Positions 1 through 22,076 of a stretch of 41,447 bases of DNA are shown one piece after another. Numbering within the stretch: position 1 is the stretch's first letter; the number at the start of each line of letters is the position of its first letter. This DNA is from Candidatus Micrarchaeota archaeon CG_4_10_14_0_2_um_filter_60_11 (GTDB lineage: Archaea; Micrarchaeota; Micrarchaeia; Norongarragalinales; Norongarragalinaceae). The notes beneath the pieces are model-generated. The model saw only the letters and a program-made list of their open reading frames with translations. It searched no databases and had not been told where the DNA came from. The translations under genes and the position numbers were made by a program. The stretch covers positions 1 to 41,447 of the forward strand of contig PFPF01000034.1 of assembly GCA_002792915.1 (NCBI GenBank), in the 5' to 3' direction.

Positions 1-156
1 GCGGTTAAAACGGCTTTCTGCGTGCAAAAATTAATGAACCCGCGGCGCGTCATCACTGCATGGTTTCGCTGGTGGAAGTCGGCGTGCTCTTGCTTTTCCT
101 CGTATACCACGTGGACGAAGGCGAACGCAAAGGCGAGCCGGTCTACTCGCTGTTCT

Positions 157-2154
157 TCAAGAAATGACCCTGGATTCGCCCGCCTTCTTTTCAATGCGGT
201 AAACCTTGTCCGCGAACGCCTCCAATTCGCGCTCGTGGGAAACGAGTATGACCTGCCCGCCGCGCAGCCCGTCGAACACCGCGCGCATGCGCTCGAGCTG
301 TTCGCGGCTGAACCCGTCGGTCGGCTCGTCCAAAATCAGCAGGTTTTCCGCCATCGCCGCGCATTCGCGCTTAACGAGCGCGTTCAACGCCAATCGGTAA
401 GCGAGCGCTATCGCGGTCTTCTCGCCGCCGCTCAGCGCGCCCACCTCCTGCTCGAAGCCGCCTTGCGTGACTTGCGGGGTGAACGCCTCGTCTAAGCTTG
501 CATCCAAATCCCCGCCTTCCAAGAGAACGGAAACCCACTTCGAGAAGAGCTCGTTGAATTCCGCGTTCAGGTAGCGCAACACGTGCTCTTCAATCGAGTC
601 CAGCGACGGGATGAAGAAGTCGTTGAGCCACGCCTTCTGTTTGGAACGCTTCGCCAACTCCTCCTCGAAAACGCGCGCCGCTTCCTCCTCCGTATGCGCC
701 TCCTTCAATTCGCGAGCGTCGCGTTCCAGCGCGGCCTTCGCAGCGGCAACCGCGGCCATCGCCTTCGCGTGCCCTGCCCTCGCCAGCCCCGCCGCGCTTT
801 CCTTTTCCGCGTAACCCTTCAGGGAATCGTTTTTCTGTTGTAGCAGTTTTTTCTTTTTCGCCAGCTCGCCCTCGCCTTCGGCCGCGAGCTTCTCCGCCTC
901 TTTTTTCTTGCCTTCCACTTCGGCCTTGCGCTTCGCGGCTTCCCCCAATTCCGCCTTCTTCCCCAACGCCTGCGCGTACTCGGATTCCGCCCTTATCGCC
1001 GCGTCCTTACCGCGCGCCAATTCATCGCAGCGGCTACGCTTTTCAACCGCTTCCGCGCGCAACCGCTTTTCGTTCGCCTCGTTCTCGCTTATTTTCGCGC
1101 CGAAGCCCTCGTTGCGCGTTGCCTGCCCGCAAGTCGGGCATTCGCCTTTCTTGACGAGGTCGCGCAGGGAGTCCGTCTTGCTTTCGAGTTTCGCCAATTC
1201 GCCCTCGAGGCAGCGCAGCGCGGCGTCCGCCTTCTTCCATTCGCCCGCGATTTCCGAAGATGCTTTTTCCGGCTTCCTCAATTCGGCTTTTTCCGCCAGC
1301 TTCTTGTCAAGCCGCTTGATTTCAGCCGCGTAATCCTGCGCGAGCGCATGCAGCCGCTTGAGGCTTTGCTCCAGGCGCGGGACTTCGGCGGCGAGCGCGG
1401 CAGCCTCGGACTTTTCCGCCTGCAAGGCCTTCAATTCCCTTTCCGCCGCTTCCAGCGTTTTTTCTTTTTTCTTCGCGTCGCCTTCGAGTTTTTCTGCTTC
1501 GCCTTCGCCTTTTTTCACCGCCCGCGCAAGCAACGCGATTTTTTCGCGCAGCGCGGCGAGCCCGGAAACCTTGCCTTCGAGGAAAGAGAGGCGCTGGCGG
1601 ATGGACTGCAACGCCGTGCGGCAGTTGTCCTTCGCGTTCTTGTAGTCCTCGATGCCGAATGCCTTGCGCAGCGTCTGCAGCCGCTCGTCCGGCTTCTGGT
1701 TCAGTATAAACTTCATTTCCTCCTGCGGCGTGAACACCGCGTACCTGTAGATGACGCTCGTGCTCTTGGGGTCCGCGGGCTCGTTGAACCCGAGGATTTT
1801 CAGCACGGCGGGCTTGATTTCGGACGGCGCGAGCGCCGTGCGCACGCCGTTGCTTTCAAGCCAGCCGTCGCCCTGCGAGACAGTTTTTTTGCCGCGTTCG
1901 AGCGTGCGCTCCACCAAATGCTTTTTGCCGTTGACCTCGAAATCCAGCCGAACCCTGCCGCGCTTGGCGCCGTGCCGCAAGAGGTGGCTCGCCTTCAACT
2001 CGCCCAAACCGAATAACGCGAATTCTATCGCGTAAAGAAGCGTGCTCTTGCCCGAGCCTATGTCGCCCTCGAACAGCACGACTCCGTTAGGAAATTCAAC
2101 CGTTGCCTCGCGGTACGAGCGCACGTTTTCCAGTTCGAGCTTGAGGAGCCTCAT
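157..2154 (-). CDS. rad50: Rad50 double-strand-break repair ATPase (SMC-like), short coiled-coil version (665 aa)
   Basis: Walker A 'FEGDIGSGKSTLLYAIEFALFG'. Long A/E/K-rich coiled coil with a central zinc hook 'GECPTCGQ'. C-terminal signature and Walker B 'LSGGEKTAIALAYRLAL...LLILDEPTDGF'. 4-nt overlap with mre11 upstream. Confidence 0.93.
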   Translation of the reverse strand: MRLLKLELENVRSYREATVEFPNGVVLFEGDIGSGKSTLLYAIEFALFGLGELKASHLLRHGAKRGRVRLDFEVNGKKHLVERTLERGKKTVSQGDGWLESNGVRTALAPSEIKPAVLKILGFNEPADPKSTSVIYRYAVFTPQEEMKFILNQKPDERLQTLRKAFGIEDYKNAKDNCRTALQSIRQRLSFLEGKVSGLAALREKIALLARAVKKGEGEAEKLEGDAKKKEKTLEAAERELKALQAEKSEAAALAAEVPRLEQSLKRLHALAQDYAAEIKRLDKKLAEKAELRKPEKASSEIAGEWKKADAALRCLEGELAKLESKTDSLRDLVKKGECPTCGQATRNEGFGAKISENEANEKRLRAEAVEKRSRCDELARGKDAAIRAESEYAQALGKKAELGEAAKRKAEVEGKKKEAEKLAAEGEGELAKKKKLLQQKNDSLKGYAEKESAAGLARAGHAKAMAAVAAAKAALERDARELKEAHTEEEAARVFEEELAKRSKQKAWLNDFFIPSLDSIEEHVLRYLNAEFNELFSKWVSVLLEGGDLDASLDEAFTPQVTQGGFEQEVGALSGGEKTAIALAYRLALNALVKRECAAMAENLLILDEPTDGFSREQLERMRAVFDGLRGGQVILVSHERELEAFADKVYRIEKKAGESRVIS

Positions 2155-3380
2155 TTGAGCGCCTCCAAAACCTTTTCCGCCTTGGCAGCCACGCGTTCCT
2201 CGAAGCCCTGCTTCGCTTCCCCTTCGGGCCGCGCGGCTTTCAGCTCGTCAAGCAGCGGCCTGCAGGGCTTTTCGTCCCATTTGCCTTCCGCCAATTCGTG
2301 GAAAAGCTTTTCCTCGACTTCGCGCCTGCTGTTGCCCTCGATTTTAACGCCCGAAGCCAGCGGCGCCGACAAGCCCGACCTGTTGACCTTGACGCAGGCC
2401 GCGCCTTCGAACGCGGCGCGCACCGCGTTCCAATCCACTTCCCCCGGGCTGCCGCTTGAAAGCTCACCATGAACCTTAAGCAACACTATTTTTCCCTTCG
2501 CTTCGCACGCCCGCGCCTTTTCCAGCAGTTCTTCCCGCAAATCCGCCGCGCTTTTTCCGGTTGCGCCGCACTCCACGACTTCCACGCCCGCGGTTTCCAC
2601 TGGCTTGAATTCCGTTTTCGCCTTGCCGCCCGCCACGCGAACCAAATAAAAGCCGTGCTTGTTTTCGCGCAAATCCTCCAAGTCCCTGTAATCCGCGGCG
2701 AACAGCGGGCCGGGAAACACGATGCGGCCGTAACCCTTCTCTTCCGCGTCGATGCGCGCGTGCACGTGCCCGCCCGCGTAATAATCGAAGCCCTTCGGGA
2801 ACAGCGAGAGCGGCACGCCGTCCACCCCTTTCAGGAAGTCCGGCTTGTGTTCCTCGACGCCGGAATGAAAGACGAAAATCTTGAACCCATCCTCGGCTTC
2901 CAGCGCCTTGCGGTCCAGGCAGCCGAAGTGCTCGCGTTCCAAACCACGTTTCCGCGCGCTCATTCCCGCGATTTTCGCGCCAGTCTCCGCGTCTTCAATG
3001 AATCGCAGCCGCAGCGCCTCGCCTTCGTATTCGCCCAGCGACACCTTGGTTATCAAGCCCGTGCTTTCGAGCAGGTCGATTACGTTCTTCTCGCCCGGCG
3101 AGTAGTCGTGCGAGCCGTAGACAACGTAAAAGCGCTTGCCTTGTTCCCGCAAAATTCGCATCTTGCGCACCGCGCGGTCGGCAACGGACAAGTCGGGAAG
3201 CGGAGAGTCGAACAAGTCTCCCGCGATTATTATGAAGTCGGCCGTTCCGCAGGCGTCAAGCGCGCGCTCGAAGGCGAGGCAATTGAGCTCCCGCAACTCG
3301 GGCTCGCGGAACGCGCCCAGGTGCACGTCGGACAAGTGCGCGAAAACGAAGTCCCCCATCTTGCAGTTTTTAGGGCGCAC
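2151..3380 (-). CDS. mre11: Mre11 nuclease (calcineurin-like phosphoesterase)
   Basis: Phosphoesterase motifs 'FAHLSDVHLG', 'IIIAGDLFD', 'VVYGSHD', 'GGHVH'. Sits between herA and rad50. The real start is possibly the internal Met at 3359 ('MGDFVFAHLSD'). Confidence 0.9.
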   Translation of the reverse strand: MRPKNCKMGDFVFAHLSDVHLGAFREPELRELNCLAFERALDACGTADFIIIAGDLFDSPLPDLSVADRAVRKMRILREQGKRFYVVYGSHDYSPGEKNVIDLLESTGLITKVSLGEYEGEALRLRFIEDAETGAKIAGMSARKRGLEREHFGCLDRKALEAEDGFKIFVFHSGVEEHKPDFLKGVDGVPLSLFPKGFDYYAGGHVHARIDAEEKGYGRIVFPGPLFAADYRDLEDLRENKHGFYLVRVAGGKAKTEFKPVETAGVEVVECGATGKSAADLREELLEKARACEAKGKIVLLKVHGELSSGSPGEVDWNAVRAAFEGAACVKVNRSGLSAPLASGVKIEGNSRREVEEKLFHELAEGKWDEKPCRPLLDELKAARPEGEAKQGFEERVAAKAEKVLEALK

Positions 3381-3420
3381 TCCAATTTAAACGAAGGCAG
3401 GCGTGGCTTCCGGTGGCTGT

Positions 3421-4881
3421 TCAAACGAACGCTTTTCTGGCCGGCGCGCTAGCCGCGGCAGCCGATGCGTGCTCCTCGAAAAGGGGAATGCTTATGGGCA
3501 CGGCGAATCGCGAGAAGACGCTGGACACTATGGCTTCGCCCTTGTCCAGCGCGGCAATCGCCTTGTCATCCGTGGACAGGTCCTGCGACGCGCTGGCAAT
3601 CAGCGCCTCCCTTTCCTGCTTCATCTCGTTGCCCAAGATGATTTTCGTGTTAAGGTTCGCCAAGACCTCGCGCGGAATCAGGCTCGCGAGCTGGGTTATC
3701 GCAATCAATCCCACGCCGAACTTGCGGCCCTCGCGAGCGATTGACGAGAAGACGTTGGCCCCGGCCGCCTCGCTCAAGACGCGCGGCGCCTCTTCCAGGA
3801 CGATGGAAACTACGGGCTTGTCGGTTTGCGCCGCCTTGCGCCTGTTGAACAGCGCGTTGGTGAAAACGCTTGCAACCAGCAGCTCTGCCTCGCTTCCGAG
3901 GCGCGAAGTGTCGATTACCACCTTCTTCGAGTCCAGCAGGTGGCCGGTTACGTCGTCCACGATCGTCTCGCTGCCGTTTTTCACGAAGACGCGCCCGTCG
4001 AGTATCAGGCCGAGCTTGCGCTGCAGCACGTTCAGCGTGACGTCCTGCACCTTGTCGCCTAGGCTGTCCCCCGCGAGCAGGCGGGTTATCCAATCCTTTT
4101 CCCAAGTCTTGTAAGCCAAGTGCAGGGTCTGCTGCTGGGCTTCGCTGAACGGCATCACGCCGTTGAAGTGCCACGGCTTGAGCGCGGCATAGTTTACGCG
4201 CAGCGACACTTGCCCGCCCTCCGGGTTGGGCGAATAAGATTTCAGCCATTCGCCGGCTTTCGCGTGCTTTTTGAGCGACTTGTGGTACTCGTTGTGCGGG
4301 TCCATCACCAGCACGCCGCAGTAATCCTTGTCCAGCAACTCGTAAAGCATTACCTTCACCAGGTTGCTCTTGCCGCGCCCCGTCGTAGCGGGCACGAGAA
4401 CGTGGTGACTCAACACCTTTTCGCCGTCCAGCTCGATGCGCTTGTCAATTGCCTTGCTGCCGCTGCGCAGCCTGCCCAGGAACAGCGGCTTCTCCGGCTT
4501 ATCGAGGAACGACAGGTCCGCGTCGCGGATGCGCCGCAACCCGTTGAAGAATTTGGGAAGGGTTTTCGTGGAAACGGCCTTGCCGCCGCGCACGGTTACA
4601 AGCCCCTTGACTTTGGCGAGCACGTAGTGCCTTAACTCTTCCTCGAAGAAGCTGGTTTTTTCCCCCTTGCCCTCGAGGCGCAGGCCGCTCATGAGCTCGA
4701 TTGTTTCCGGCTGGATTTGGCTGCCGTACTCCAAGTCGTAAACCTGAAGCAGCTGTATGCCGTTCGGCTCGTCGCACGCAAGCAACTCGCCGATTTCCAA
4801 TTCTTCCCCGCTTTTTTGGCGCGCGAGAATCTCGCCAAACGCGCCCGAAACGATTTGCCCCACGAACTCCATCGAAAACAC
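3421..4881 (-). CDS. herA: HerA bipolar DNA helicase (FtsK/HerA-type ATPase)
   Basis: Walker A '[18 protein letters not shown]' and Walker B-like '[12 protein letters not shown]'. N-terminal barrel-like region. Located in the nurA-herA-mre11-rad50 context. Confidence 0.88.
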
Positions 4882-4890
4882 CCCTGATTT

Positions 4891-5886
4891 TCAAACCCTG
4901 TCCAGGAAATCGTGCGCGTCCACCGCGCAGGAGTCCAGCTCGATTTCCCGCCACGCCCCCTCCCCGATTTCCTGCCGCATCACTCCCTGCATCTGCCTGG
5001 CTTCCTCGAAGGGAACGCGCGCGCGTTTGTCCGCGTCCACCAAGCCGTAAGGATAGCCTAGAAAAGCCAAGTCCGACGCCTGGAACGCGAGCGCGGGCAG
5101 CACGCTCAGCGCATCGCAGCCTCGCTTCACCTCGAAACGGAAGCAGTGCGTGGCGTTTTCGTGCAGCTTGGCAACGAACAAGTCCGCCTCGTGGTCCGGC
5201 TGGCTGTTGACGCACAACGGGCCGTAAACCCACGGCGCGGCGCGCTTACCCGCGAGGCGTGCGACCGCCGAAACCAGCGGCAGGCCCGTAGTCGTGTAAA
5301 GAGAACTCGTTTTCGCCAGCGCGGAGAAAACGCCCTTGCTTTCCGCGTACGCCTTCCGGCTGAAAATGGATTCGTTGGTGACGCTGGTCTGGAGCGTGCC
5401 GTCGCGCACCGGGTTGAAGCACCTGCATGCCATCTTCCATTCCGCGAAGCGGCGCGCAACCGCGCCCAGCGCGGACGGCGACGCCTTGAACCCGCCTTGC
5501 GCCAGAGTCGCGTCCGCCCAGTCGAAAGCCAAGTCCTCTTGCAAAAGCTTGGGTCCGTTGAGCGGCATTGTTTCCGCCTTTAACAGCATCTGGCCGCCCG
5601 ACGCGGGCTCGACGCGCGTTATTACCAGAAACTCGGATTCTTCGCTCGTCTTGCGCTCGCCGCCGTCGAACTCGTTGCGGTAAACGCGCACGAGCTGGAC
5701 CGAAAGGTTGGGCGTGTTGATTACGCTCGCGTTGCCGCCGTCCACGCATGTCAGCCTGCCCGCTTCCGCTTCGAAGGATTGGAAGCGCGCCTCGTCGAAC
5801 GCGAGCGGCGAGTAGCGCGGGTCGCTGAAGTGCGGCGCGCCCAGCGCGGTTTTTTTCGGCGAGAGTTTAGCGAAGTCGAAAGCCAT
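4891..5886 (-). CDS. nurA: NurA 5'-3' nuclease
   Basis: 'CVDGGNASV' (DGS-type catalytic Asp region) and C-terminal 'FLGYPYGLVDADKRARV' typical of NurA. Immediately upstream of herA. Confidence 0.8.
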   Translation of the reverse strand: MAFDFAKLSPKKTALGAPHFSDPRYSPLAFDEARFQSFEAEAGRLTCVDGGNASVINTPNLSVQLVRVYRNEFDGGERKTSEESEFLVITRVEPASGGQMLLKAETMPLNGPKLLQEDLAFDWADATLAQGGFKASPSALGAVARRFAEWKMACRCFNPVRDGTLQTSVTNESIFSRKAYAESKGVFSALAKTSSLYTTTGLPLVSAVARLAGKRAAPWVYGPLCVNSQPDHEADLFVAKLHENATHCFRFEVKRGCDALSVLPALAFQASDLAFLGYPYGLVDADKRARVPFEEARQMQGVMRQEIGEGAWREIELDSCAVDAHDFLDRV

Positions 5887-9920: not shown

Positions 9921-10271
9921 ATGTTCAAGCAAGCCATCGTTCTCCGCAGCGATTTGGAAATGGGAAAGGGAAAACTAGTCGCGCAGGGGAGCCACGCGTC
10001 ACTGGAAGCCTTCATCGAGGCGCAGAAGTCCAGCGCGCTGACCGTTGCCGCGTGGCGCAGCACTGGCTGCAAGAAGATTACGCTCAAAGTGTCAAGCGAA
10101 GCCGAGTTGAAGGAACTGTATTCCAAGGCGAAGCGCCTCAAGCTGCCCTGCTCGCTGGTGCGGGACGCGGGGCACACGCAAGTCGAGCCGGGCACGATAA
10201 CCGCGCTCGCAATCGGCCCGGCAGCCGACGGCACGATAGACAAGGTCACCGGCGGCTTGAAACTGCTATAG
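9921..10271 (+). CDS. pth2: Peptidyl-tRNA hydrolase, archaeal type (Pth2)
   Basis: 'MFKQAIVLRSDLEMGKGKLVAQGSHASL...VRDAGHTQVEPGTITALAIGP'. Start set at the ATG at 9921 rather than the track's 9870. Confidence 0.88.
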   Translation: MFKQAIVLRSDLEMGKGKLVAQGSHASLEAFIEAQKSSALTVAAWRSTGCKKITLKVSSEAELKELYSKAKRLKLPCSLVRDAGHTQVEPGTITALAIGPAADGTIDKVTGGLKLL

Positions 10272-10274
10272 ATT

Positions 10275-10646
10275 TCAGATTATTTGGTCGAGCGTCAAGC
10301 CGGACTGGGATTCGCGGCTGTTCAGCGTGAAGCCCTTATCCGCCTCGTTGAACACCGCGAGCGGGAAGAAGTGCCAGCCTTTGCGTGCGACTTTCCACGC
10401 GACGTAAACGGGCATTCCAGTCGTCGCCTGCCACTGCTGCATTATTCTGAACTTCGCCTTCTCGATGTACAGGTTGTTCTTCCACGCCTTGCATTCGATT
10501 GCGAACTTCTTAGTCGTATGCAGCGCGATCAGGTCGGGCGACACGCCGTCCACTCCCGAACCGCTGGCTCGGACAACAAAAAAGCCCTTGGCGATTAGCA
10601 GTTTTTTCAGCTCGCGTTCGGCTGCCGAGCCCTTGTTGTAAGACAT
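10275..10646 (-). CDS. hjc: Holliday junction resolvase Hjc
   Basis: 'GSAAERELKKLLIAKGFFVVRASGSG...PDLIALH...FAIECKAW' (E...D...ExK nuclease motifs). 123 aa. Confidence 0.88.
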   Translation of the reverse strand: MSYNKGSAAERELKKLLIAKGFFVVRASGSGVDGVSPDLIALHTTKKFAIECKAWKNNLYIEKAKFRIMQQWQATTGMPVYVAWKVARKGWHFFPLAVFNEADKGFTLNSRESQSGLTLDQII

Positions 10647-10739
10647 CGCACGCGTTACGCCGCGCCGGCTTTTAACGCATACGCATTTAAACCGCTTCGC
10701 GCCGTTATTGTTCAGCGATTATAGAGGGAGGTTGTCGTA

Positions 10740-11042
10740 ATGCCTGAACGCGAACTGTTTTTGAAGCAGAGGGAAGGCAAGTTTTCGCTTAAGCCCGCGC
10801 CCGAGGCGCCTTTGACAAACGAGCGGCCCGCAAAGCTGCTTTTCAAGAGCACCAAAACGCCCGCCTACCTGCTTAGGAACCCGGGTTTGCACGCGCTGCT
10901 TAACCCTACGCACGAGGAAGGCGCGTACCGCAAGTTTGTGCGGTATAAACTCGGCCCGAACCCGCCAGCCAGCAGGGAGAACATCGCCGACTTGTTCCGC
11001 AATAACTACCCGCAGCGCGCCGCCAAGACCTACCGCAAGTAA
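10740..11042 (+). CDS. Hypothetical small basic protein (100 aa)
   Basis: ATG preceded by a strong 'GGAGG' 8 nt upstream and an 'ATTTAAA' box about 50 nt upstream. No recognisable domain. Confidence 0.5.
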   Translation: MPERELFLKQREGKFSLKPAPEAPLTNERPAKLLFKSTKTPAYLLRNPGLHALLNPTHEEGAYRKFVRYKLGPNPPASRENIADLFRNNYPQRAAKTYRK

Positions 11043-11111
11043 TTGTCGTCGCCTGCCGTTTTCGCGAACCTATTTAAATGCGGAAACGGAAATTGTTGGG
11101 ATAAGGTTTAA

Positions 11112-11534
11112 ATGGAGACAGGCATCAAAGTCGGAGACTGCATGAAGACGGTCCTGGTTACCGTCGGCGAAGATTCTTCGCTGAAGGACGCCGCCTCTAG
11201 GATGAAGCAATCCAAGGTGGGCAGCCTTTTGGTGACCAACAAGGCCGGGAAGATTTACGCGATTATAACCGCGGAGGACATCGTCACGAAGGCGGTGGCT
11301 TCCGAACGGTTGAGCGAGCCCGTCAAGGCGTTCGCCAGCAAGCCCCTCGTCGGCATAAAAGTCGACGCGGACTTGAGGGATGCCGCCAAGCTGATGGGCG
11401 AGAAGAACATAAAGCGGCTCGTGGTCCACAAGGGCGACGGGTCAATCGCGGGAATACTCTCGGAAAGGGACATAGTCAGGATCTCTCCTTCTTTGTACGA
11501 CCTGATCGCCGAGAGGGAAAAATTGAACCGTTGA
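11112..11534 (+). CDS. CBS-domain pair protein
   Basis: Two CBS repeats ('VGDCMKTVLVTVGEDSSLKDAASRMKQSKVGSLLV', 'IKVDADLRDAAKLMGEKNIKRLVV...GILSERDIV'). 'TATTTAAAT' box about 35 nt upstream. Confidence 0.85.
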   Translation: METGIKVGDCMKTVLVTVGEDSSLKDAASRMKQSKVGSLLVTNKAGKIYAIITAEDIVTKAVASERLSEPVKAFASKPLVGIKVDADLRDAAKLMGEKNIKRLVVHKGDGSIAGILSERDIVRISPSLYDLIAEREKLNR

Positions 11535-13557: not shown

Positions 13558-13857
13558 GTGCATTCGATAGTCAGGCGTTTGAAGAGCAAGGTCTTGTCCG
13601 CCGGCGTGTCCGCCGAAGGCGTCGGCATAATCCAGCTGCGCAAGCGCGTCACCGAGGCGGAGTTCAAGGCCGCGGCAAAAGAGCAGGGATTGAAGACGAA
13701 CTTCCAGGGTTCCAAGAAGTATTTGGAGGCGCGCAACCCGAAGGACCAGCTCGTCGCGGTTCTCGTAGACTACAACCACCTGATACTGCCGAAGCACGCG
13801 CATTCCAAGCAGGCCGCGTTCGACTTGGCGAAGTCGCTGTTGGGGGCCAAGGAATGA
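13558..13857 (+). CDS. Hypothetical 99-aa protein translationally coupled to the Lon-like ATPase
   Basis: GTG start after 'GGTGGTG'. Protein-like composition. The stop overlaps the next start (ATGA at 13854-13857). Confidence 0.45.
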   Translation: MHSIVRRLKSKVLSAGVSAEGVGIIQLRKRVTEAEFKAAAKEQGLKTNFQGSKKYLEARNPKDQLVAVLVDYNHLILPKHAHSKQAAFDLAKSLLGAKE

Positions 13858-15269
13858 AATTCAAGTCGACGGCTGACGTCGCAATACCCGCGGACCCGCT
13901 CGCACAGGTCATCGGGCAGGACCACGCCGTTGAAATCGCGAAAATCGCCGCGCGCCAGCGGCGCCACCTGCTGCTGGTCGCCGCGCCCGGAACGGGTAAA
14001 AGCATGTTGGCTCAAGCAGTCGCATTCCAATTGCCTTCGCCCACCGAGGAAATCTCGGTTTTGCACAACCCCGCGAACCCCGAGCGGCCTTCCGTCGAAA
14101 TCCGCACGCAGTCGGACGCGGTTAAAGAGAGAAAATTGCGGGAGCGCATTCAAGGCAGGCTGGTGGCGCCGATCGACGTGCCGTCATTCGTCGCGGAACG
14201 CCTTGGCTTCAGGTGCCCGCGTTGCGGGGCGCTGGGCCGCGCAGCCGACCGCGCGTGCGCGAATTGTGGCGCGGACAAGTCGTACGCGTTGAACCCGTTC
14301 TCGAACATTTACGTCGAAGAAAAGGACGCACCCCGCCGCGTGCACACCACGCGCCTCAAGGAGGACAACTCGGAAGAGGTAATCGTTTACGAGCGGATGG
14401 GGGAAAAAGTCCGCGTGCTCGACCAGGCCGCGCTCGAACAGCTGGACGCGCTGCAGAAGCGCCAGCCGCGCAAGATAATCGTGCCCTTCGAGCGCAACAC
14501 TTTCGTAGTCGCGACGGGTGCCTCCGAAACAGAGCTGCTGGGCGACGTGCGGCACGACCCGTACGGCGGCCACCAGCAAATCGGCACGCCGCCCTATCTC
14601 CGCGTTGTTCCCGGCGCCATTCACGAGGCGCACCAGGGCGTCCTGTTCATCGACGAGTTGAGCGCGCTTGCGTACATACAGCGCTTCCTCCTCACCGCGA
14701 TGCAAGAGAAAAAGTACTCAATCGTCGGGCGCAACCCGCAGAGCGCGGGCGCGAGCGTGAAAGTCGAGGGCGTGCCCTGCGACTTCGTATTGATTGCCGC
14801 GTCCAACATCAACGACTTGCCCGCCATACTCCCGCCTCTGCGCAGCCGCGTCATAGGCAACGGCTATGAAGTCCTGCTGGACACTGTGATGCCCGACACC
14901 CCCGTTAACCGGGAAAAAATCTGGCAATTCGTGGCGCAGGAAATACGCAAGGACGGAAAAATACCGCACGCTTCGCCGGAAGCCATGGAGGAAATAATCG
15001 CGGTGTCCGCAAAGAAGGCGAAGGAGTACGACGACGCGGACTCTTCGCTGACGCTTCGTTTCCGCGAGTTGAGCGGCCTCGTGCGCCTCGCGGGGGACAT
15101 CGCCGTCGTGGAGGGCGCGCCGCTCATACTGCCAGAATTCATCGGCAAGGCGTTGAAGCGCGGCGCGCGCGTCGAGAAGCAAATCGAGGAGCGTTACGGC
15201 TCGCTGTGGAAGGGCGGGCAGGCCGACTCGGCAAAGCCAGTTTCAAAGGACGAGCGCAGTTTCGGCTGA
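13854..15269 (+). CDS. LonB-like AAA+ ATPase without a protease domain. A zinc ribbon sits in place of the LonB membrane hairpin.
   Basis: 'VIGQDHAVEIAKIAARQRRHLLLVAAPGTGKSMLAQAV' (Walker A). 'CPRCG...x11...CANCG'. 'LLGDVRHDPYGG', 'GVLFIDELS' (Walker B), 'LIAASN', 'PPLRSRV'. The protein ends after the AAA+ lid (472 aa) with no Ser-Lys protease domain and no hydrophobic TM segment. Confidence 0.75.
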   Translation: MKFKSTADVAIPADPLAQVIGQDHAVEIAKIAARQRRHLLLVAAPGTGKSMLAQAVAFQLPSPTEEISVLHNPANPERPSVEIRTQSDAVKERKLRERIQGRLVAPIDVPSFVAERLGFRCPRCGALGRAADRACANCGADKSYALNPFSNIYVEEKDAPRRVHTTRLKEDNSEEVIVYERMGEKVRVLDQAALEQLDALQKRQPRKIIVPFERNTFVVATGASETELLGDVRHDPYGGHQQIGTPPYLRVVPGAIHEAHQGVLFIDELSALAYIQRFLLTAMQEKKYSIVGRNPQSAGASVKVEGVPCDFVLIAASNINDLPAILPPLRSRVIGNGYEVLLDTVMPDTPVNREKIWQFVAQEIRKDGKIPHASPEAMEEIIAVSAKKAKEYDDADSSLTLRFRELSGLVRLAGDIAVVEGAPLILPEFIGKALKRGARVEKQIEERYGSLWKGGQADSAKPVSKDERSFG

Positions 15270-17653: not shown

Positions 17654-17707
17654 GCCTTATTCTTGAAGCCCAAAGGGCTTTTATTGGTTGCCGCCCTGTT
17701 AGGAACC

Positions 17708-18796
17708 GTGGCAAAAAAAGGCAACCGCAAAGCCTCCGCCAAAGTTTCTTCGGCAACCGCTAGGGTCAAGGCCGCGAGGCCGAAAACCAAAGCCAATGCC
17801 AACGCGGCCTTTTTGCCTCCCGAAATCAAGTCCAGCGCGGACCTGAAGGTTCCCGAAAAAATCGTGGACCGGGTGATCGGGCAGGACGCCAGCGTCGAAG
17901 TCATCCGCAAGGCCGCGTCCCAAAAGCGCAACGTGCTGTTCGTAGGCTCGCCGGGAACGGGCAAGAGCATGCTTGCGCAGGCCATGGCCGAGCTGCTTCC
18001 GGTTGAAAAGCTGGAGGACATACTTGTCTACCCGAACGCGGAGAACGAGAACGCGCCCATCGTGAAAGTCGTGCCTGCGGGCGAAGGCAGAAAAATCGTG
18101 GAGCAGGAACGCGTCAAGTCCGTGGTTCCCGGCGGCAACCCCAACCTGATAGTGATGGTCCTGCTCATGGTGTTCTCGTTCCTGCTGCTGACCTTCTGGA
18201 GGCCGACGCTCGGCGACGTGATAACCGCCGCGCTCCTCATTTGCACTTTCATATTGGCGGGACTTGTTGCCATCGGCTCCCAGCTGAGCCGCGGCCCGAA
18301 GCTCTTCGAATCCGCCGCCGAAGGCGCGAAGCTCCTCATCGACAATTCCGGAAAGACGCGTGCGCCCTTCGTTGACGCGACCGGCGCGCGGGCGGGCGCT
18401 TTGTTGGGCGACTGCAGGCACGACCCGTTCCAGTCAATGACCGGCGAGGACAGGCTAGTGGTTGCAACCGGCGGCATCGAGAAAGAGGTTTCTTTCGCGG
18501 AATTGTGGAAGCGCACGGCTGCCAAGCATCCAGAACTCGTCGAAACGAACGAGGACGGCTACGAGGCGATAATACTTCCCGGCGACGAGGAAGTTTACAC
18601 CATCGGCTACGATGCCGGCGCGCCAATCAAGACGCGCGTCTTGTTCCTGAACCGCAGGCCTTACGACGGCGAAATCGTGGAAGTCAGAGCTGGGGGCAGC
18701 GAAGCGGCGTTCACGCCCGAACACGAGCTCATAACCCAGTCCGGCGACAAGCCCGTTTCGCAGATAAGAAAGGGCGACGAGCTCGTCACGCGCTAG
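17708..18796 (+). CDS. lonB: LonB protease N-terminal fragment (Walker A plus membrane hairpin) fused to an N-terminal intein half. The ORF stops inside the intein.
   Basis: 'VPEKIVDRVIGQDASVEVIRKAASQKRNVLFVGSPGTGKSMLAQAMAELLP'. Two TM helices ('LIVMVLLMVFSFLLLTF', 'ITAALLICTFILAGLVAIG'). 'LLGDCRHDPFQ' is followed by Hint-like sequence. TATA-like 'CTTTTATT' about 27 nt upstream of the GTG at 17708. No Walker B, sensor or protease domain follows. Confidence 0.8.
   Translation: MAKKGNRKASAKVSSATARVKAARPKTKANANAAFLPPEIKSSADLKVPEKIVDRVIGQDASVEVIRKAASQKRNVLFVGSPGTGKSMLAQAMAELLPVEKLEDILVYPNAENENAPIVKVVPAGEGRKIVEQERVKSVVPGGNPNLIVMVLLMVFSFLLLTFWRPTLGDVITAALLICTFILAGLVAIGSQLSRGPKLFESAAEGAKLLIDNSGKTRAPFVDATGARAGALLGDCRHDPFQSMTGEDRLVVATGGIEKEVSFAELWKRTAAKHPELVETNEDGYEAIILPGDEEVYTIGYDAGAPIKTRVLFLNRRPYDGEIVEVRAGGSEAAFTPEHELITQSGDKPVSQIRKGDELVTR
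18434..18793 (+). mobile_element. Intein N-terminal splicing half (Hint blocks A and B), 120 aa, without an endonuclease or C-terminal splicing region
   Basis: Block A-like 'SMTGEDRLVVATGG' directly after the conserved LonB 'HDPFQ'. Block B-like 'FTPEHELITQSGDKPVSQIRKGDELV' (TxxH) about 94 residues later. TAG stop at 18794. Confidence 0.6.
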
Positions 18797-18833: not shown

Positions 18834-20072
18834 ATGAAGCGCGCCCTCCTCCTGCTGCTCGCCTTTTCGGCTTTCGCCCTCGCAGCCGAGGCAACGCCCG
18901 CGCCGCATTGGTACGAGCGCGTCAGCCTGTCCGAAAGCCACACGAGCCAGCAAATGCTGTTGCTGGACATCGACGGCGCGCGCCTCACCGTCAACGGCAA
19001 CGAGTTTCTTGTCGACTTAGTCGACCGTTCGCCGGACTCCGTTGCCTTGAAGATAACCCATGACGGCGAAGTCTTGTGCAGCGGCTTGGAGCCGAACTGC
19101 ATCTTGAAGGCGGGACAGGAAAACGACGCCTTGCTGGCCATGACGGGCGTGCGCATCTCTTGGACGCCCTCGCAGTATTCGGACGACATGAGCAACGGCG
19201 CGCTCATCCTTTTCGAGTTGCCGGGTCCGGCTTGTGTCCAGATTTACGGCAGCGCAGCCGTTGAAACGGGCTTGAACCTGGCGTTTGTTTCCGACGGCTT
19301 CGAAAAAGGCGAGGAGGCGGAGTTCAAGGCGGCAGCCGTGAATGCCGTGCGCGACCTAATTTCCGTTGCGCCTTACTCGCGGCACGCCGCCGCGGTGAAC
19401 GCGTACTACGTGCCGGCCAGTTTCGGCAAATCGTACGAGTTCACCGACCAAGGCATGCCCGAAGGCATCAGTAATGCGGTCCGCGAGTGCAGGCAAGCGG
19501 TGACAGTGCTGTTGTCCAAAGAGTTCTGGAAGGGTGAAACAGCCTTAGCCTCTCGTGGGTTTGCGCGCCTGCCCGCACCCCTGTATTTGAAGTCGCGTTC
19601 GGACGCGCTGACCGGCAGGTTGGTCGTGGCGCACGAGTTCGCGCACGCGATTGCGGAGCTGGACGACGAAACGTTCAACGAATCCAGGTTCGCTTCCGGC
19701 GAAGGCGCGACGCTGGTTTACGCGCCTAACACGGACATGCTCGGCTGTGGCAAGTGGTGCTCGGGCGCCAACGGCGGCGGCAAACAGTGCAATACCCTGT
19801 GGGCCGCCTTCTCGAATTGCCAGGGTAAGGGTGCGGAGTGCGTTGCTGGCGTGTCCGCCGCTTACGGCGCGGACGCTTTGGCCGCCCTGCTGGCGTGCAA
19901 CTTCGGCTCGGACTGCGTCAGCGGTACGGGATGCTACGCGGGCGTCGGCTACGTGTTCATAACCGCATTCAAGCCCGTTAAGAGCGATTGCATCATGGGC
20001 GATTTGTATTCCGCCCGCTTCTGCCCGGTTTGCGAGCGCGCTCTAGAGGAAAAGCTCAAGGAGTTCGGTTGA
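18834..20072 (+). CDS. Secreted zinc metallopeptidase, M64 (IgA-peptidase)-like, with a Cys-rich C-terminal region
   Basis: Signal peptide 'MKRALLLLLAFSAFALAAEA'. 'NLAFVSDGFEKGEEAEFKAA...APYSRHAAAVNAYYV'. 'VVAHEFAHAIAELDDE' (HExxH...L.DE). Confidence 0.6.
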   Translation: MKRALLLLLAFSAFALAAEATPAPHWYERVSLSESHTSQQMLLLDIDGARLTVNGNEFLVDLVDRSPDSVALKITHDGEVLCSGLEPNCILKAGQENDALLAMTGVRISWTPSQYSDDMSNGALILFELPGPACVQIYGSAAVETGLNLAFVSDGFEKGEEAEFKAAAVNAVRDLISVAPYSRHAAAVNAYYVPASFGKSYEFTDQGMPEGISNAVRECRQAVTVLLSKEFWKGETALASRGFARLPAPLYLKSRSDALTGRLVVAHEFAHAIAELDDETFNESRFASGEGATLVYAPNTDMLGCGKWCSGANGGGKQCNTLWAAFSNCQGKGAECVAGVSAAYGADALAALLACNFGSDCVSGTGCYAGVGYVFITAFKPVKSDCIMGDLYSARFCPVCERALEEKLKEFG

Positions 20073-20073
20073 A

Positions 20074-20640
20074 TTGAAGGCGTTGCTCGCGTTCCTCGCG
20101 GTTTGCTCGCTCGTTGCCGGCGCGCAGCACTTGGCCGTCGAGCTTGATTATTCGAACGGCAGCTTGTCCTGCGTTTCCGCGCAACTTGCATCGGGCTACC
20201 CCGAAGACTACCGCCTGCACTCTTCGGCTGGCGATTACTCGTACGCGCTGCTGGCCGAAAACAACAGCGTTCTCGACTCTTTTCCGTTCGGCGCGCCAAT
20301 GGTTTTTTACGACGACTTTTCCGCGAATTCGACGGGGGGAAGTTCGGCGGAGCTGGAGGGACCTTTCGAGTTGCGCGCCAAAAGTTTAGACGGCGCGGCA
20401 GCCGTGAAGATAAGCGAGGGCAACCGCACGGTTTGCCTGCTTTCACTGGCCGCGCCTTCAGTCCCGCAAATGCAGGCGACCGCGTCGCCTTCCGCTTCAC
20501 CTTCGCCCTCATCTTCCCCGCAGCCTTCACCCGCCCAGCCAACCGGCAGCAATCAAGGCTTTTTCTGGGCGGCTGTCCTGCTCGCTGCGCTGGCGGCCGG
20601 AGCGTTCATTTACTATTCGGATAAGCGCGGGCGCCGCTAG
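20074..20640 (+). CDS. Secreted/anchored protein with a Pro/Ser linker and a C-terminal TM plus basic tail (PGF-CTERM-like)
   Basis: TTG start 1 nt after the previous stop. Signal 'MKALLAFLAVCSLVAGA'. 'SPSASPSPSSSPQPSPAQPTGSNQGFFWAAVLLAALAAGAFIYYSDKRGRR'. Confidence 0.55.
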   Translation: MKALLAFLAVCSLVAGAQHLAVELDYSNGSLSCVSAQLASGYPEDYRLHSSAGDYSYALLAENNSVLDSFPFGAPMVFYDDFSANSTGGSSAELEGPFELRAKSLDGAAAVKISEGNRTVCLLSLAAPSVPQMQATASPSASPSPSSSPQPSPAQPTGSNQGFFWAAVLLAALAAGAFIYYSDKRGRR

Positions 20641-21353: not shown

Positions 21354-22076
21354 GTGAAATGCTGGGCACTTTGGCTGGCTATGGTTTATGTCCCGAAAAT
21401 TACGGAGTTCGACTTGAATGTGGATACTGCGTATTTGACTGGCGTGATAATCGGCGACGGCCACATAAGCGGCGATTATCGTTCTTTTCCGCCGCGTGAC
21501 GAAATTGATCCGAAGATTGCGATAGAAGGCGGCAATCGGGTGTTTATTTGCGATGAAGTTAAGCCACTCGTAGACAAAACAATTTTGCGGAGTTGCAATG
21601 TTACCGAGCGGGGCAGCAGGGGAATTAACCGGAACCCTACTTGGGTTCTTGCGTTCAGGAGCAAGTATTTTCACAAGTTTTTGACCGAAGACTTGGGTCT
21701 GCCTAAAGGCAAGAAAGCCGAAAAAATCTCGTTGCGCGTCATGCTGGAAAAAATAGGCGATCGTGCTGAAGTCAAGCGTGCTTTAATTGCAGGCATTTTT
21801 GACACGGACGGCGGTTTGCGGGGGAACAGCATAGGGCATTGCACGGCGAGTAAATCCTTGCGGGATGAAATGATTGACTTGCTCGCAGAAAACGATATTG
21901 CCGCAACAAGAAGCGAATGGGTGAACAAGCGGTATAACAAGAAATACTACGACTGGCGAATAAAGCGCCATGAATCAATCCGCTCTTTCTTGGAAAAAAT
22001 TCCGCTTAGGAATAAAATCAGAAAAGAGCGGATTCGCCAGCGTTTTTGCGCCGCGCCTGCGGCTAAGGTTGTGTAA
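21354..22076 (+). CDS. Free-standing LAGLIDADG (double-motif) homing endonuclease
   Basis: Motif 1 'YLTGVIIGDGHI' and motif 2 'LIAGIFDTDGGL'. The likely real start is the ATG at 21381 ('MVYVPKITEF'), with a 'TTTTTAAAT' box at 21344-21352. Local GC (about 40-52% per 60-nt row) is clearly below the flanks. Confidence 0.85.
   Translation: MKCWALWLAMVYVPKITEFDLNVDTAYLTGVIIGDGHISGDYRSFPPRDEIDPKIAIEGGNRVFICDEVKPLVDKTILRSCNVTERGSRGINRNPTWVLAFRSKYFHKFLTEDLGLPKGKKAEKISLRVMLEKIGDRAEVKRALIAGIFDTDGGLRGNSIGHCTASKSLRDEMIDLLAENDIAATRSEWVNKRYNKKYYDWRIKRHESIRSFLEKIPLRNKIRKERIRQRFCAAPAAKVV

What the first reader, a model, noticed from the sequence alone, without database searches (positions are those of the whole stretch)
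17708..18796. LonB gene terminates inside an intein: candidate naturally split (trans-splicing) intein and a split Lon protease
The ORF encodes a canonical archaeal LonB N-terminus: Walker A 'GSPGTGKSM', a two-helix membrane hairpin, and the conserved 'LLGDCRHDPFQ'.

Where LonB normally continues 'SGGLGTP...Walker B', the sequence switches to 120 aa with intein/Hint features. Block A reads 'SMTGEDRLVVATGG' and block B reads 'FTPEHELITQSGDKPVSQIRKGDELV'. The ORF then hits TAG at 18794.

Downstream is an AT-richer intergenic spacer followed by an unrelated signal-peptide gene. No endonuclease domain, C-terminal splicing blocks, Walker B or Ser-Lys protease domain follow in any frame.

A 120-aa N-terminal intein piece ending shortly after block B matches the architecture of natural split inteins such as cyanobacterial DnaE and Nanoarchaeum equitans PolB. 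A functional LonB would then need a separately encoded IntC plus C-extein gene elsewhere. Contiguous Lon inteins have been catalogued in Pyrococcus (from memory; insertion site not verified). I am not aware of a described split Lon.
Basis: partly seen in the sequence, partly recalled or inferred. Interest (0 to 1): 0.85.

Follow-up and report, generated by a model that had tools for sequence, protein, structure and literature searches.

The report
Split LonB protease joined by intein
This archaeal genome encodes its membrane Lon protease as two separate genes, each ending or starting with half of a self-splicing intein, so the enzyme must be stitched together after translation; the same split occurs in more than a hundred other tiny-celled archaea and I found no description of it in the papers searched.

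Summary
The observation and the interpretation both hold.

**N-half.** ORF 17708-18796 encodes LonB residues 1-242: Walker A, the membrane hairpin, and a sequence ending ...HDPFQ. A 120-aa N-terminal intein fragment follows (Ser1, block B TPEH), then TAG.

**C-half.** The partner gene lies just outside the window. Four independent assemblies match window 1-5153 at 100% identity. They carry, 4.85 kb upstream on the same strand, a 455-aa gene (P0123). It consists of a 35-aa IntC ending His-Asn, then Ser-GGLGTP, Walker B and the Ser-Lys Lon protease domain.

**Splicing in silico.** Joining the two exteins gives a 662-aa protein. It scores 831.6 bits on the LonB model (cut-off 516.6) in one unbroken match.

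**Intein identity.** The intein profile hits solved inteins (E=1e-10). The IntN model (pLDDT 87) matches only inteins by fold.

**Distribution.** At least 120 protein clusters share the N-half architecture. They range from contiguous inteins at this LonB site, through adjacent halves, to dispersed halves.

**Verdict.** This is a new member of a known kind, a naturally split, catalytically cysteine-less intein. Trans-splicing itself is inferred, not shown.

The parts
17708..18796 (+). N-half gene: LonB N-extein + N-terminal intein fragment + TAG stop. It is 362 aa from GTG 17708; gene callers use TTG 17663, giving 377 aa (P0001).
   Evidence: ORF list and sequence. Identical gene on 15 independent contigs. 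Homologues start 'MAKK', matching 17708.
17708..18433 (+). LonB N-extein, aa 1-242, ending ...LLGDCRHDPFQ.
   Evidence: TIGR00764 model positions 4-199 of 608, E=1.9e-57. The profile aligns to T. onnurineus LonB 4zpx/3k1j up to ...HDPFQS218 and stops there.
17945..17968 (+). Walker A motif GSPGTGKS (aa 80-87).
   Evidence: Direct reading. PGTGKS is invariant in alignment A1.
18143..18280 (+). Two-helix membrane hairpin (aa 146-164 and 171-191), the LonB-specific membrane anchor inserted in the AAA+ module.
   Evidence: Hydrophobic stretches read directly. They align to the equivalent insertion of T. onnurineus LonB.
18434..18793 (+). IntN, the N-terminal fragment of a split intein, 120 aa (aa 243-362), cysteine-free, net charge -9.
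   Evidence: Profile hit to the Mja KlbA intein. AF2 model pLDDT 86.8; top 26 Foldseek PDB hits are all inteins.
18434..18475 (+). Block A. The Ser1 codon (18434-18436) is the N-terminal splice nucleophile.
   Evidence: This position is S in 91, C in 26 and T in 3 of 120 homologues. The N-extein model match ends just before it.
18710..18724 (+). Block B, F-T-P-E-H (the TxxH motif; Thr336, His339).
   Evidence: TPEH in 103 of 120 homologues and TSDH in 11. T, P, E and H are invariant in A1.
18794..18796 (+). TAG stop that ends IntN at the canonical endonuclease-insertion or split site, 23 aa after the block B His.
   Evidence: Homologues stop 22-53 aa (median 29) after the block B His. In the contiguous relative P0157 the chain continues here into IntC.
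17679..17685 (+). TATA-like TTTTATT about 25 nt upstream of GTG 17708. It is a possible archaeal promoter for a leaderless mRNA. This is inference only.
   Evidence: Read from the sequence. A similar TTAAAATTA lies about 30 nt upstream of the C-half ATG in L137.
1..5153 (.). Anchor stretch that ties the window to the contigs carrying the partner gene (IntC + LonB C-half, P0123). That gene ends 4,848 bp left of window base 1 on the + strand.
   Evidence: 100% identity over 5,153 bp to L137, L139 and L142, and over 4,818 bp to L141. The C-half gene is at L137 10001-11368, and window base 1 corresponds to L137 16216.

Best explanation
The window holds the N-terminal half of a naturally split lonB gene from a Micrarchaeota (DPANN) archaeon.

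**The two gene products.**
- Gene 1 (17708-18796) makes a membrane-anchored polypeptide. It carries the LonB Walker A region, the TM hairpin and a 120-aa IntN.
- Gene 2 (P0123) lies about 22.5 kb upstream on the same strand, just outside the window. It makes a soluble polypeptide: a 35-aa IntC followed by the rest of LonB (Walker B, sensor and lid, Ser-Lys protease domain).

**Proposed mechanism (inferred).**
1. IntN and IntC associate on the cytoplasmic face of the membrane and fold into one HINT domain.
2. They carry out class-1 protein trans-splicing. Ser1 makes the N-O acyl shift. Ser+1 attacks in trans-esterification. The terminal Asn (His-Asn) cyclises. An O-N shift then forms the peptide bond ...HDPFQ-SGGLGTP....
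3. The product is a normal 662-aa LonB that can hexamerise.

**Shown:** the two genes, their co-residence in one genome, the intein homology and fold, conservation of all catalytic positions, and exact restoration of LonB.

**Inferred:** that splicing occurs, and that neither half works alone.
For: **Anatomy.** Searches give the N-half layout.

**Intein homology.**
- The N-half profile hits the Mja KlbA intein 2jmz at E=1.1e-7.
- A profile of in-silico fused IntN+IntC sequences hits:
  - 2jmz at 1.4e-10;
  - the split NrdJ-1 intein at 2.3e-8;
  - the Pho RadA intein at 1.1e-6;
  - the CDC21 inteins at 6.3e-6;
  - the Pab PolC (1.1e-4) and PolII (1.6e-3) inteins, more weakly;
  - the Neq split intein, weakly at E=0.47.
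- Pfam Intein_splicing matches 9 of 9 fused sequences (best 1.7e-8; 2.2e-5 for the window pair).
- The AF2 model of IntN has pLDDT 86.8, and the top 26 Foldseek PDB hits are all inteins (best E=8.1e-4).

**Catalytic positions.**
- Position 1 varies only among S, C and T (91/26/3).
- Block B is TPEH or TSDH in 114 of 120.
- IntC ends in Asn in all 53 split C-halves, with HN in 37 of them. The +1 residue is Ser in P0123 and in every printed locus.

**Partner gene in the same genome.** P0123 lies on contigs identical to window 1-5153. Both halves also occur in sample ERZ27293412.

**The spliced product is a full LonB.** It scores 831.6 bits on TIGR00764 against a 516.6 cut-off, covering model positions 4-606 of 608 in one stretch. 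P0123 has Lon_C at E=3.5e-34.

**Conservation.**
- At least 120 N-half clusters.
- 53 split C-halves among the top 120 C-half hits.
- Both halves sit on one contig in L130 and in 49 further loci.
- A contiguous cis version of the same mini-intein exists (P0157/L125).
Against: - No experiment or proteomic junction peptide shows splicing.
- The window's N-half alone does not reach curated Hint or intein cut-offs. The fused window pair also stays below the Pfam gathering score (24.8 against 35.8 bits).
- Foldseek E-values are modest (best 8e-4, TM about 0.5). This is expected for a fragment.
- Linkage of the two halves rests on a 5.15-kb 100% overlap, not on one record read end to end.
- I could not scan the whole genome for an additional intact lonB.
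- The charge complementarity of IntN (-9) and IntC (+4) seen here is not general in the family. Family IntN mean is +5.4.
Confidence: 0.85

Rival explanations
1. The two halves assemble non-covalently through the intein fragments, or simply as subunits, and work as a two-chain LonB without peptide-bond formation. The intein pieces would act only as a dimerisation module.
For: Many split genes of DPANN archaea work as separate subunits without inteins (PMC3655853). In some family members the penultimate His is replaced by K, S, A, C or Y. Thr occupies position 1 in a minority. Both changes could lower splicing efficiency.
Against: In the window pair every catalytic residue is canonical: Ser1, T-x-x-H, His-Asn and Ser+1. 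Across more than 100 sequences at a median 41% IntN identity, the nucleophile position is restricted to S/C/T and the terminal Asn is kept. That pattern is expected for retained chemistry, not for mere binding. A 155-aa HINT domain left inside the AAA+ nucleotide-binding fold between Walker A and Walker B would probably disturb ATPase assembly (inference).
Confidence: 0.1
2. The N-half ORF is a truncated pseudogene or decaying remnant, and a separate intact protease does the work.
For: A LonB-like AAA+ paralogue lies 2.4 kb upstream at 13854-15269. The whole genome could not be searched for another lonB.
Against: - The architecture is conserved in at least 120 clusters, with an intact reading frame and catalytic motifs.
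- The partner C-half lacks Walker A and so cannot be a stand-alone enzyme.
- The paralogue has no protease domain and no TM hairpin.
- The two halves add up to a perfect LonB.
Confidence: 0.03
3. The break is an assembly or sequencing artefact (chimeric join, frameshift or spurious stop) in a contiguous intein-containing lonB.
For: The sequence comes from metagenome assemblies. Contiguous Lon inteins at this site do exist.
Against: - The same gene, stop and downstream neighbour occur on 15 contigs from different runs and assemblers, and the C-half on 21 contigs.
- Between the halves lie about 22.5 kb of ordinary genes: a Rad50/Mre11/HerA-type cluster (Pfam) with a fourth 331-aa gene that has no Pfam hit, DnaG, and RNase Z.
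- The IntC gene has its own ATG and a TATA-like box.
Confidence: 0.02

Closest known systems
Nanoarchaeum equitans DNA polymerase B split intein (Neq Pol; NEQ068/NEQ528; PDB 5oxx/5oxz)
   Same: A naturally split intein in a DPANN archaeon joins two separately encoded halves of an essential enzyme. The split is at the endonuclease-insertion site, giving a large IntN and a short IntC. The Neq intein appears among both the sequence and the fold hits.
   Different: The host protein is a membrane-bound AAA+ protease rather than a replicative polymerase. The Neq intein is known to me from a single lineage (own knowledge). This family spans Micrarchaeota, Iainarchaeota, Woesearchaeota, Nanoarchaeia and Heimdallarchaeum-labelled genomes. 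Sequence similarity to Neq is only marginal (E=0.47).
Cyanobacterial DnaE split intein (Ssp/Npu DnaE)
   Same: Obligate trans-splicing of a housekeeping enzyme. The split is fixed across a whole clade, and the halves are dispersed in the genome. Sizes are similar: IntN about 100-120 aa and IntC about 35 aa.
   Different: DnaE inteins use Cys1 and Cys+1, whereas this one uses Ser1 and Ser+1. According to Novikova et al. 2016, all known inteins at that DnaE site are split. Here contiguous, adjacent-split and dispersed-split forms coexist at one site.
Metagenomic split inteins of 'fractured genes' (gp41-1, NrdJ-1, IMPDH-1; Dassa et al. 2009)
   Same: NrdJ-1 is the second-best sequence hit, with block F/G similarity '...T.NFFANDILVHN'. 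In 23 related loci the halves lie on the same strand with 0.76-4.5 kb between them.
   Different: In the window the halves are 22.5 kb apart with ordinary genes between them and no endonuclease ORF. The nearby LAGLIDADG ORF is unrelated. In 22 related loci the large endonuclease-site insert stays fused to IntN, and IntC starts at an ATGA overlap. That arrangement differs from a free-standing endonuclease gene.
Contiguous LonB inteins of Thermococcales and other Euryarchaeota (Pab Lon, Pho Lon; Novikova et al. 2016 list 10)
   Same: Same host protein and, for the loci seen here, the same insertion site (...HDP[FL]Q | SGGL[GE]TP). Blocks F/G are homologous, e.g. L126 Thermococcaceae '...[20 protein letters not shown]|SGG'.
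   Different: Those are single-gene cis-splicing inteins of 430-500 aa with an endonuclease domain. The window's is split into two genes and has lost that domain. The insertion site of the classical Pab and Pho Lon inteins was not checked directly.
Cysteine-less split inteins (Aes123 PolB1 / CL intein; LCGC14 PolB2)
   Same: Ser at positions 1 and +1, and no Cys anywhere in IntN or IntC of the window pair. PMC12707363 calls this a rare subclass. The Aes intein 9hth appears in both the sequence and the fold hits.
   Different: Those come from phage PolB genes. This one is from an archaeal chromosomal protease gene. Its activity and kinetics are unknown.

Membership tests
Intein (HINT-fold, class 1 protein-splicing element) | Block A: a Cys/Ser nucleophile as the first residue directly after the N-extein. 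| tested here: met
   Ser243 follows ...HDPFQ. The position is S/C/T in 120 of 120 homologues. The LonB match ends at the junction.
Intein (HINT-fold, class 1 protein-splicing element) | Block B: the T-x-x-H motif. | tested here: met
   T336-P-E-H339. TPEH or TSDH in 114 of 120.
Intein (HINT-fold, class 1 protein-splicing element) | Blocks F/G: C-terminal (His-)Asn followed by a Ser/Thr/Cys +1 extein residue. | tested here: met
   P0123 IntC reads ...FVYNATTDTGNLFVNGILAHN|S. The terminal Asn is present in all 53 split C-halves. This feature lies outside the window.
Intein (HINT-fold, class 1 protein-splicing element) | Significant sequence similarity to established inteins. | tested here: met
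   Profiles give E=1.1e-7 and 1.4e-10 to the KlbA intein and 2.3e-8 to NrdJ-1. Single-sequence curated cut-offs are not reached.
Intein (HINT-fold, class 1 protein-splicing element) | HINT fold. | tested here: met
   The IntN model has pLDDT 86.8, and the top 26 PDB fold hits are all inteins (prob 1.00 for the first 11 hits, TMq about 0.5, best E=8e-4). It is a fragment model, so support is moderate.
Intein (HINT-fold, class 1 protein-splicing element) | Autocatalytic excision and extein ligation. | not testable with these tools
   Needs expression or proteomics.
Naturally split (trans-splicing) intein | The two intein fragments are encoded by separate genes, each fused to one extein. | tested here: met
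   The N-half ends at TAG 18794. The C-half P0123 has its own ATG 35 codons before the junction.
Naturally split (trans-splicing) intein | Both halves are present in the same genome. | tested here: met
   The contigs carrying P0123 overlap window 1-5153 at 100% identity.
Naturally split (trans-splicing) intein | The exteins join to give the complete host protein without gap or duplication. | tested here: met
   The in-silico product scores 831.6 bits on TIGR00764 over model positions 4-606 of 608 in one stretch. The junction HDPFQ-SGGLGTP equals that of T. onnurineus LonB.
Naturally split (trans-splicing) intein | Canonical split at the endonuclease-insertion site (IntN about 100-120 aa, IntC about 35-40 aa). 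| tested here: met
   120 aa and 35 aa. Alignment with the cis relative P0157 places the break between block B and block F.
Archaeal LonB protease (TIGR00764) | Full-length match above the curated cut-off: Walker A, TM hairpin, Walker B and Ser-Lys protease. | tested here: not met
   The window ORF alone scores 195.2 bits against a 516.6 cut-off and covers only model positions 4-199. The criterion is met only after in-silico splicing with P0123.
Fractured gene (split intein halves flanking a free-standing homing endonuclease gene, Dassa et al. 2009) | An endonuclease ORF lies between the two adjacent halves. | tested here: not met
   The halves are about 22.5 kb apart, with a Rad50/Mre11/HerA-type cluster, DnaG, RNase Z and other genes between them. 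The LAGLIDADG ORF at 21381-22076 lies outside the interval and shows no similarity to Lon-intein inserts.

The most novel reading that the evidence does not exclude
The LonB split intein may not be a one-off. It may be an old, clade-wide and obligatory assembly step for the membrane protease of many DPANN, and some Asgard-labelled, archaea.

Its living relatives appear to preserve every stage of how a split intein is born:
1. a contiguous intein with an endonuclease-size insert;
2. two translationally coupled genes (ATGA overlap), with the insert still attached to IntN;
3. adjacent mini-halves with decaying insert remnants;
4. halves scattered in the genome, as in this window.

If so, it would give a natural test bed for the origin of split inteins. 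It could also be a case where the cell controls protease activity by controlling trans-splicing at the membrane.
Probability: 0.3. Interest if true: 0.8.

Novelty: new member of a known kind. Interest (0 to 1): 0.66.

Why it matters
Natural split inteins are few, and they are the basis of protein ligation technology.

- **A large new family.** This one has hundreds of natural variants.
- **Cysteine-less.** Position 1 is Ser in 91 of 120 N-halves and the +1 residue is Ser in every locus seen. In the window pair there is no Cys in either fragment. A 2025 paper (PMC12707363) calls cysteine-less split inteins a rare subclass and reports only a single highly efficient one so far.
- **An unusual host protein.** To my knowledge it would be the first split intein in a protease and in a membrane-anchored protein. 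It would also be a second archaeal system beside N. equitans PolB.
- **Annotation.** LonB is scored as two unrelated genes ('ATP-binding protein' and 'LonB') in many DPANN genomes. This affects gene-content and completeness estimates.
- **Origin of split inteins.** Contiguous, adjacent and dispersed forms coexist at one insertion site. That makes the long-standing question of how inteins become split directly testable by comparative genomics.

Tried and rejected
1. **C-half inside the window.** A six-frame motif search found only the paralogue at 13854-15269. It is a contiguous AAA+ protein with its own Walker A, a zinc ribbon in place of the TM hairpin, and no protease domain. It is not the missing half.
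2. **P0127 as the partner.** P0127 is a C-half found in the same sequencing run, SRR6240789. I rejected it because its contigs have 54-55% GC against 60.9% for the window, and a tetranucleotide correlation of 0.76-0.83 against 0.95-1.0 for true relatives. It belongs to another Micrarchaeota in the sample.
3. **Window LAGLIDADG ORF (21381-22076) as a remnant of the intein's endonuclease.** There was no BLASTP similarity to any ORF of the 120 Lon-intein loci, nor to the LAGLIDADG ORF near P0127.
4. **The 121-aa ORF upstream of the C-half and the 145-aa Cys-rich ORF between the halves in L130.** Neither gave an informative Pfam match.
5. **Charge complementarity as a family-wide feature.** It holds for the window pair only.
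6. **Naming the roughly 350-aa insert fused to IntN in related loci.** Pfam gave no endonuclease match. Its LAGLIDADG-like motifs are seen by eye only.
7. **Literature.** Eight full-text searches and seven papers gave contiguous LonB inteins but no split Lon. The library covers open-access papers only.
Full report
**1. The observation**

The + strand ORF ending at TAG 18794-18796 is real. From GTG 17708 it encodes 362 aa. Gene callers use TTG 17663, giving 377 aa (protein P0001). Homologues begin 'MAKK...', which fits 17708.

- Walker A GSPGTGKS, aa 80-87;
- two hydrophobic helices, aa 146-164 and 171-191;
- LLGDCRHDPFQ, aa 232-242;
- a 120-aa tail starting SMTGEDRLVVATGG and containing FTPEH, aa 335-339.

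NCBIfam's LonB model TIGR00764 matches aa 40-246 to model positions 4-199 of 608 (E=1.9e-57) and then stops.

On the single sequence the intein signal is weak. TIGR01445 gives E=0.0078 and 17.2 bits, below its 24.5 cut-off. Pfam Hint_2 gives E=0.11.

**2. The tail is an intein N-fragment**

A search of the protein collection returned at least 120 clusters of 320-420-aa proteins with the same architecture. Those that carry a source name are labelled Micrarchaeota, Diapherotrites/Iainarchaeota, Norongarragalinales or simply 'archaeon'.

In their alignment the residue right after HDP[FL]Q is Ser in 91, Cys in 26 and Thr in 3. That is the pattern of a catalytic nucleophile, not of an extein residue. 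Block B is TPEH in 103 and TSDH in 11 of 120. All chains stop 22-53 aa after the block B His.

A profile of 20 N-halves aligns to T. onnurineus LonB (4zpx, 3k1j) exactly up to ...HDPFQS218. Its tail hits the M. jannaschii KlbA intein 2jmz at E=1.1e-7.

An AlphaFold2 model of window 18434-18793, using the homologues as its alignment, has mean pLDDT 86.8. Its 26 best Foldseek matches in the PDB are all inteins. They include PI-PkoII, Pho RadA, TFIIB mini-inteins, VMA inteins, and the split Aes PolB1, Neq and Npu DnaE inteins. The best E is 8e-4 and TM is about 0.5, as expected for a fragment.

**3. The missing half**

No C-half lies inside the window. I scanned one genome per species for DNA encoding Asn-[S/T/C]-G-G-x-x-T-P-x15-G-x-L-[F/Y]-x-D-E. 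That signature should exist only where an intein C-terminus abuts the LonB Walker B segment.

All but one carry archaeal labels; L115 is labelled a Chloroflexi MAG.

Most loci are ORFs of about 455-495 aa. Each starts only 35-50 codons before '...[H/K/S]N|SGGLGTP' and continues through Walker B and the Lon protease domain.

I used the C-half of the window's closest sequenced relative (L072) as a query. This retrieved P0123 (455 aa, 81% identical), among 53 split C-halves and 60 intein-less contiguous LonBs.

P0123 lies on 21 contigs. Four of the fetched loci are 100% identical to the window's left end: 5,153 bp for L137, L139 and L142, and 4,818 bp for L141.

In L137 the gene is at 10001-11368, and window base 1 corresponds to 16216. 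The partner gene therefore ends 4,848 bp left of the window. It is on the same strand, about 22.5 kb upstream of the N-half. Between them lie a Rad50/Mre11/HerA-type cluster, DnaG, a LonB-like AAA+ paralogue and RNase Z.

P0123 begins MVKVESVKRRKLKGFVYNATTDTGNLFVNGILAHN|SGGLGTPPHLR.... This is a 35-aa IntC with blocks F and G, His-Asn, and Ser+1. P0123 also has LonB_AAA-LID and Lon_C (E=3.5e-34).

A first candidate, P0127, came from the same sequencing run. I rejected it on base composition.

**4. The two halves make one LonB and one intein**

Joining N-extein 1-242 to P0123 36-455 in silico gives 662 aa. This scores 831.6 bits on TIGR00764 (cut-off 516.6), with a single match over model positions 4-606 of 608. 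The junction HDPFQ-SGGLGTP is the sequence of T. onnurineus LonB.

I fused IntN and IntC in silico for eight N-half/C-half pairs matched by shared contig length, and added the cis intein of P0157. The resulting profile hits:
- KlbA (1.4e-10);
- the naturally split NrdJ-1 intein (2.3e-8);
- Pho RadA (1.1e-6);
- the CDC21 inteins (6.3e-6);
- the Pab PolC (1.1e-4) and PolII (1.6e-3) inteins, more weakly;
- the Neq split intein, weakly at E=0.47.

Pfam Intein_splicing matches all nine.

P0157/L125, a Micrarchaeia LonB of 786 aa, carries the same mini-intein uninterrupted. It shows that the window's stop codon sits between block B and block F, the canonical endonuclease-insertion and split site.

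**5. Artefact and pseudogene readings**

The N-half gene, with its stop and downstream neighbour, recurs on 15 contigs from several runs and assemblers.

Both halves are conserved. Median identity to the window pair is 54% for the N-extein, 41% for IntN, 59% for IntC and 66% for the C-extein.

The upstream paralogue (13854-15269) is a separate gene. It is a contiguous AAA+ protein with a zinc ribbon instead of the TM hairpin and no protease domain.

**6. Mechanism**

Shown:
- two genes;
- one genome;
- intein homology and fold;
- canonical catalytic residues;
- exact restoration of LonB.

Inferred:
- The membrane-anchored N-half and the soluble C-half meet on the cytoplasmic side.
- IntN and IntC fold together and perform class-1 trans-splicing through Ser1, Ser+1 and the terminal Asn.
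- This releases a 155-aa two-piece intein and an intact LonB.
- Walker A is on one polypeptide, while Walker B and the protease are on the other. Neither half should be active alone.

A purely non-covalent assembly is the main rival. I rate it at about 0.1.

**7. Wider picture**

One search sorted the 120 loci as follows:

| Arrangement | Loci |
|---|---|
| Contiguous intein at this site (161-498 aa), including a Thermococcaceae MAG and the complete Nanoarchaeota YN1 genome | 21 |
| Adjacent gene pair; the N-half keeps a roughly 350-aa insert at the endonuclease site | 22 |
| Adjacent mini-halves | 4 |
| Halves on one strand with 0.76-4.5 kb between them | 23 |
| C-half alone in the fetched stretch | 40 |
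| Undetermined (junction at a locus edge or not recognised) | 10 |

- In the 22 adjacent pairs with the insert, the 39-aa IntC gene starts at an ATGA stop/start overlap in 16.
- These pairs include the complete genome of Heimdallarchaeum endolithica (L107).
- Some of the 23 same-strand loci hold recognisable remnants of that insert.
- Seven of the 40 lone C-halves have at least 3 kb of upstream sequence with no N-half.

The window, with its relative L072/L131, is at the dispersed end of this series.

**8. Novelty**

Contiguous LonB inteins are known; Novikova et al. 2016 list 10. Lists of nanoarchaeal split genes do not include Lon.

Eight full-text searches found no description of a split Lon or LonB intein. 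The library holds open-access papers only, so prior description elsewhere cannot be excluded.

Public annotation where shown names the N-halves 'ATP-binding protein' or 'hypothetical protein' (JGI uses Lon-like protease names) and the C-halves 'LonB'.

The kind of element, a naturally split intein, is well known. I therefore file this as a new member of a known kind. Three points add interest:
- the size of the family;
- its cysteine-less chemistry, a rare subclass according to PMC12707363;
- the evolutionary series it preserves.

Noticed in passing
window 13854-15269 (+): A LonB-like AAA+ paralogue of 471 aa. It matches T. onnurineus LonB at E=1e-66 over the Walker B/lid part. It has a zinc ribbon (CPRCG...CANCG) where LonB has its membrane hairpin, and it lacks the protease domain. 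It is syntenic in the related contig L131. Function unknown.
   Followed up: partly
window 21381-22076 (+): A free-standing LAGLIDADG_3 ORF of 231 aa, 2.6 kb downstream of the N-half. It shows no similarity to the inserts of Lon inteins or to another LAGLIDADG ORF near a C-half (L132 6804-7502). It is probably an independent homing-endonuclease-like gene.
   Followed up: yes
L017, L019, L040, L107 and 18 other loci (e.g. L017 reverse strand 1269-4690): In 22 species the N-half keeps a roughly 350-aa insert at the endonuclease site (two LAGLIDADG-like motifs by eye, no Pfam match). The 39-aa IntC gene starts at an ATGA stop/start overlap in 16 of them. This is a translationally coupled split intein with the insert still attached to IntN.
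   Followed up: partly
N-halves of related loci (e.g. L017, L029; P0023): Thr occupies intein position 1 in 3 of 120 N-half clusters and in 9 of 22 insert-bearing N-halves. That would be an unusual N-terminal splice nucleophile.
   Followed up: no
L130 6835-9932 (JBFMEM010000010.1): In this Micrarchaeota MAG the N-half and C-half lie on the same strand about 0.6 kb apart. A 145-aa Cys-rich, probably membrane or secreted, ORF lies between them. It is not an endonuclease by Pfam.
   Followed up: partly
window 1-89 and 77-3593, versus L138 16216-21368 and L140 (end of locus): Strain L138 carries an extra 555-aa Na+/H+ exchanger gene just left of the Rad50-like gene. Window bases 77-89 (13 bp) occur on both sides of the difference, suggesting an insertion or deletion through a short repeat. 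L140 matches only window 1-89 before its contig ends, so it shares the left junction but the gene is not seen in it.
   Followed up: no
window 157-5886 (-): A four-gene cluster of 665, 409, 486 and 331 aa. The first three have SMC_N/Rad50-like, Metallophos/Mre11-like and DUF87/HerA-like Pfam matches. It lies between the two Lon halves. NurA identity of the fourth gene is a guess from gene order.
   Followed up: no
window 18834-20640 (+): Two genes directly downstream of the N-half encode proteins with N-terminal signal-like segments. The first (412 aa) has a weak Peptidase_M64 match at its C-terminus. The second (188 aa) has a Ser/Pro-rich linker and a C-terminal hydrophobic helix.
   Followed up: no
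L115 (JAFCCG010000016.1), plus L013, L017, L019 and others: A split-Lon locus sits in a MAG labelled 'Chloroflexi bacterium'. Several MAGs labelled 'Methanosarcinales' have Woesearchaeota-like sequences. These are probably binning or taxonomy-label problems in public MAGs.
   Followed up: no
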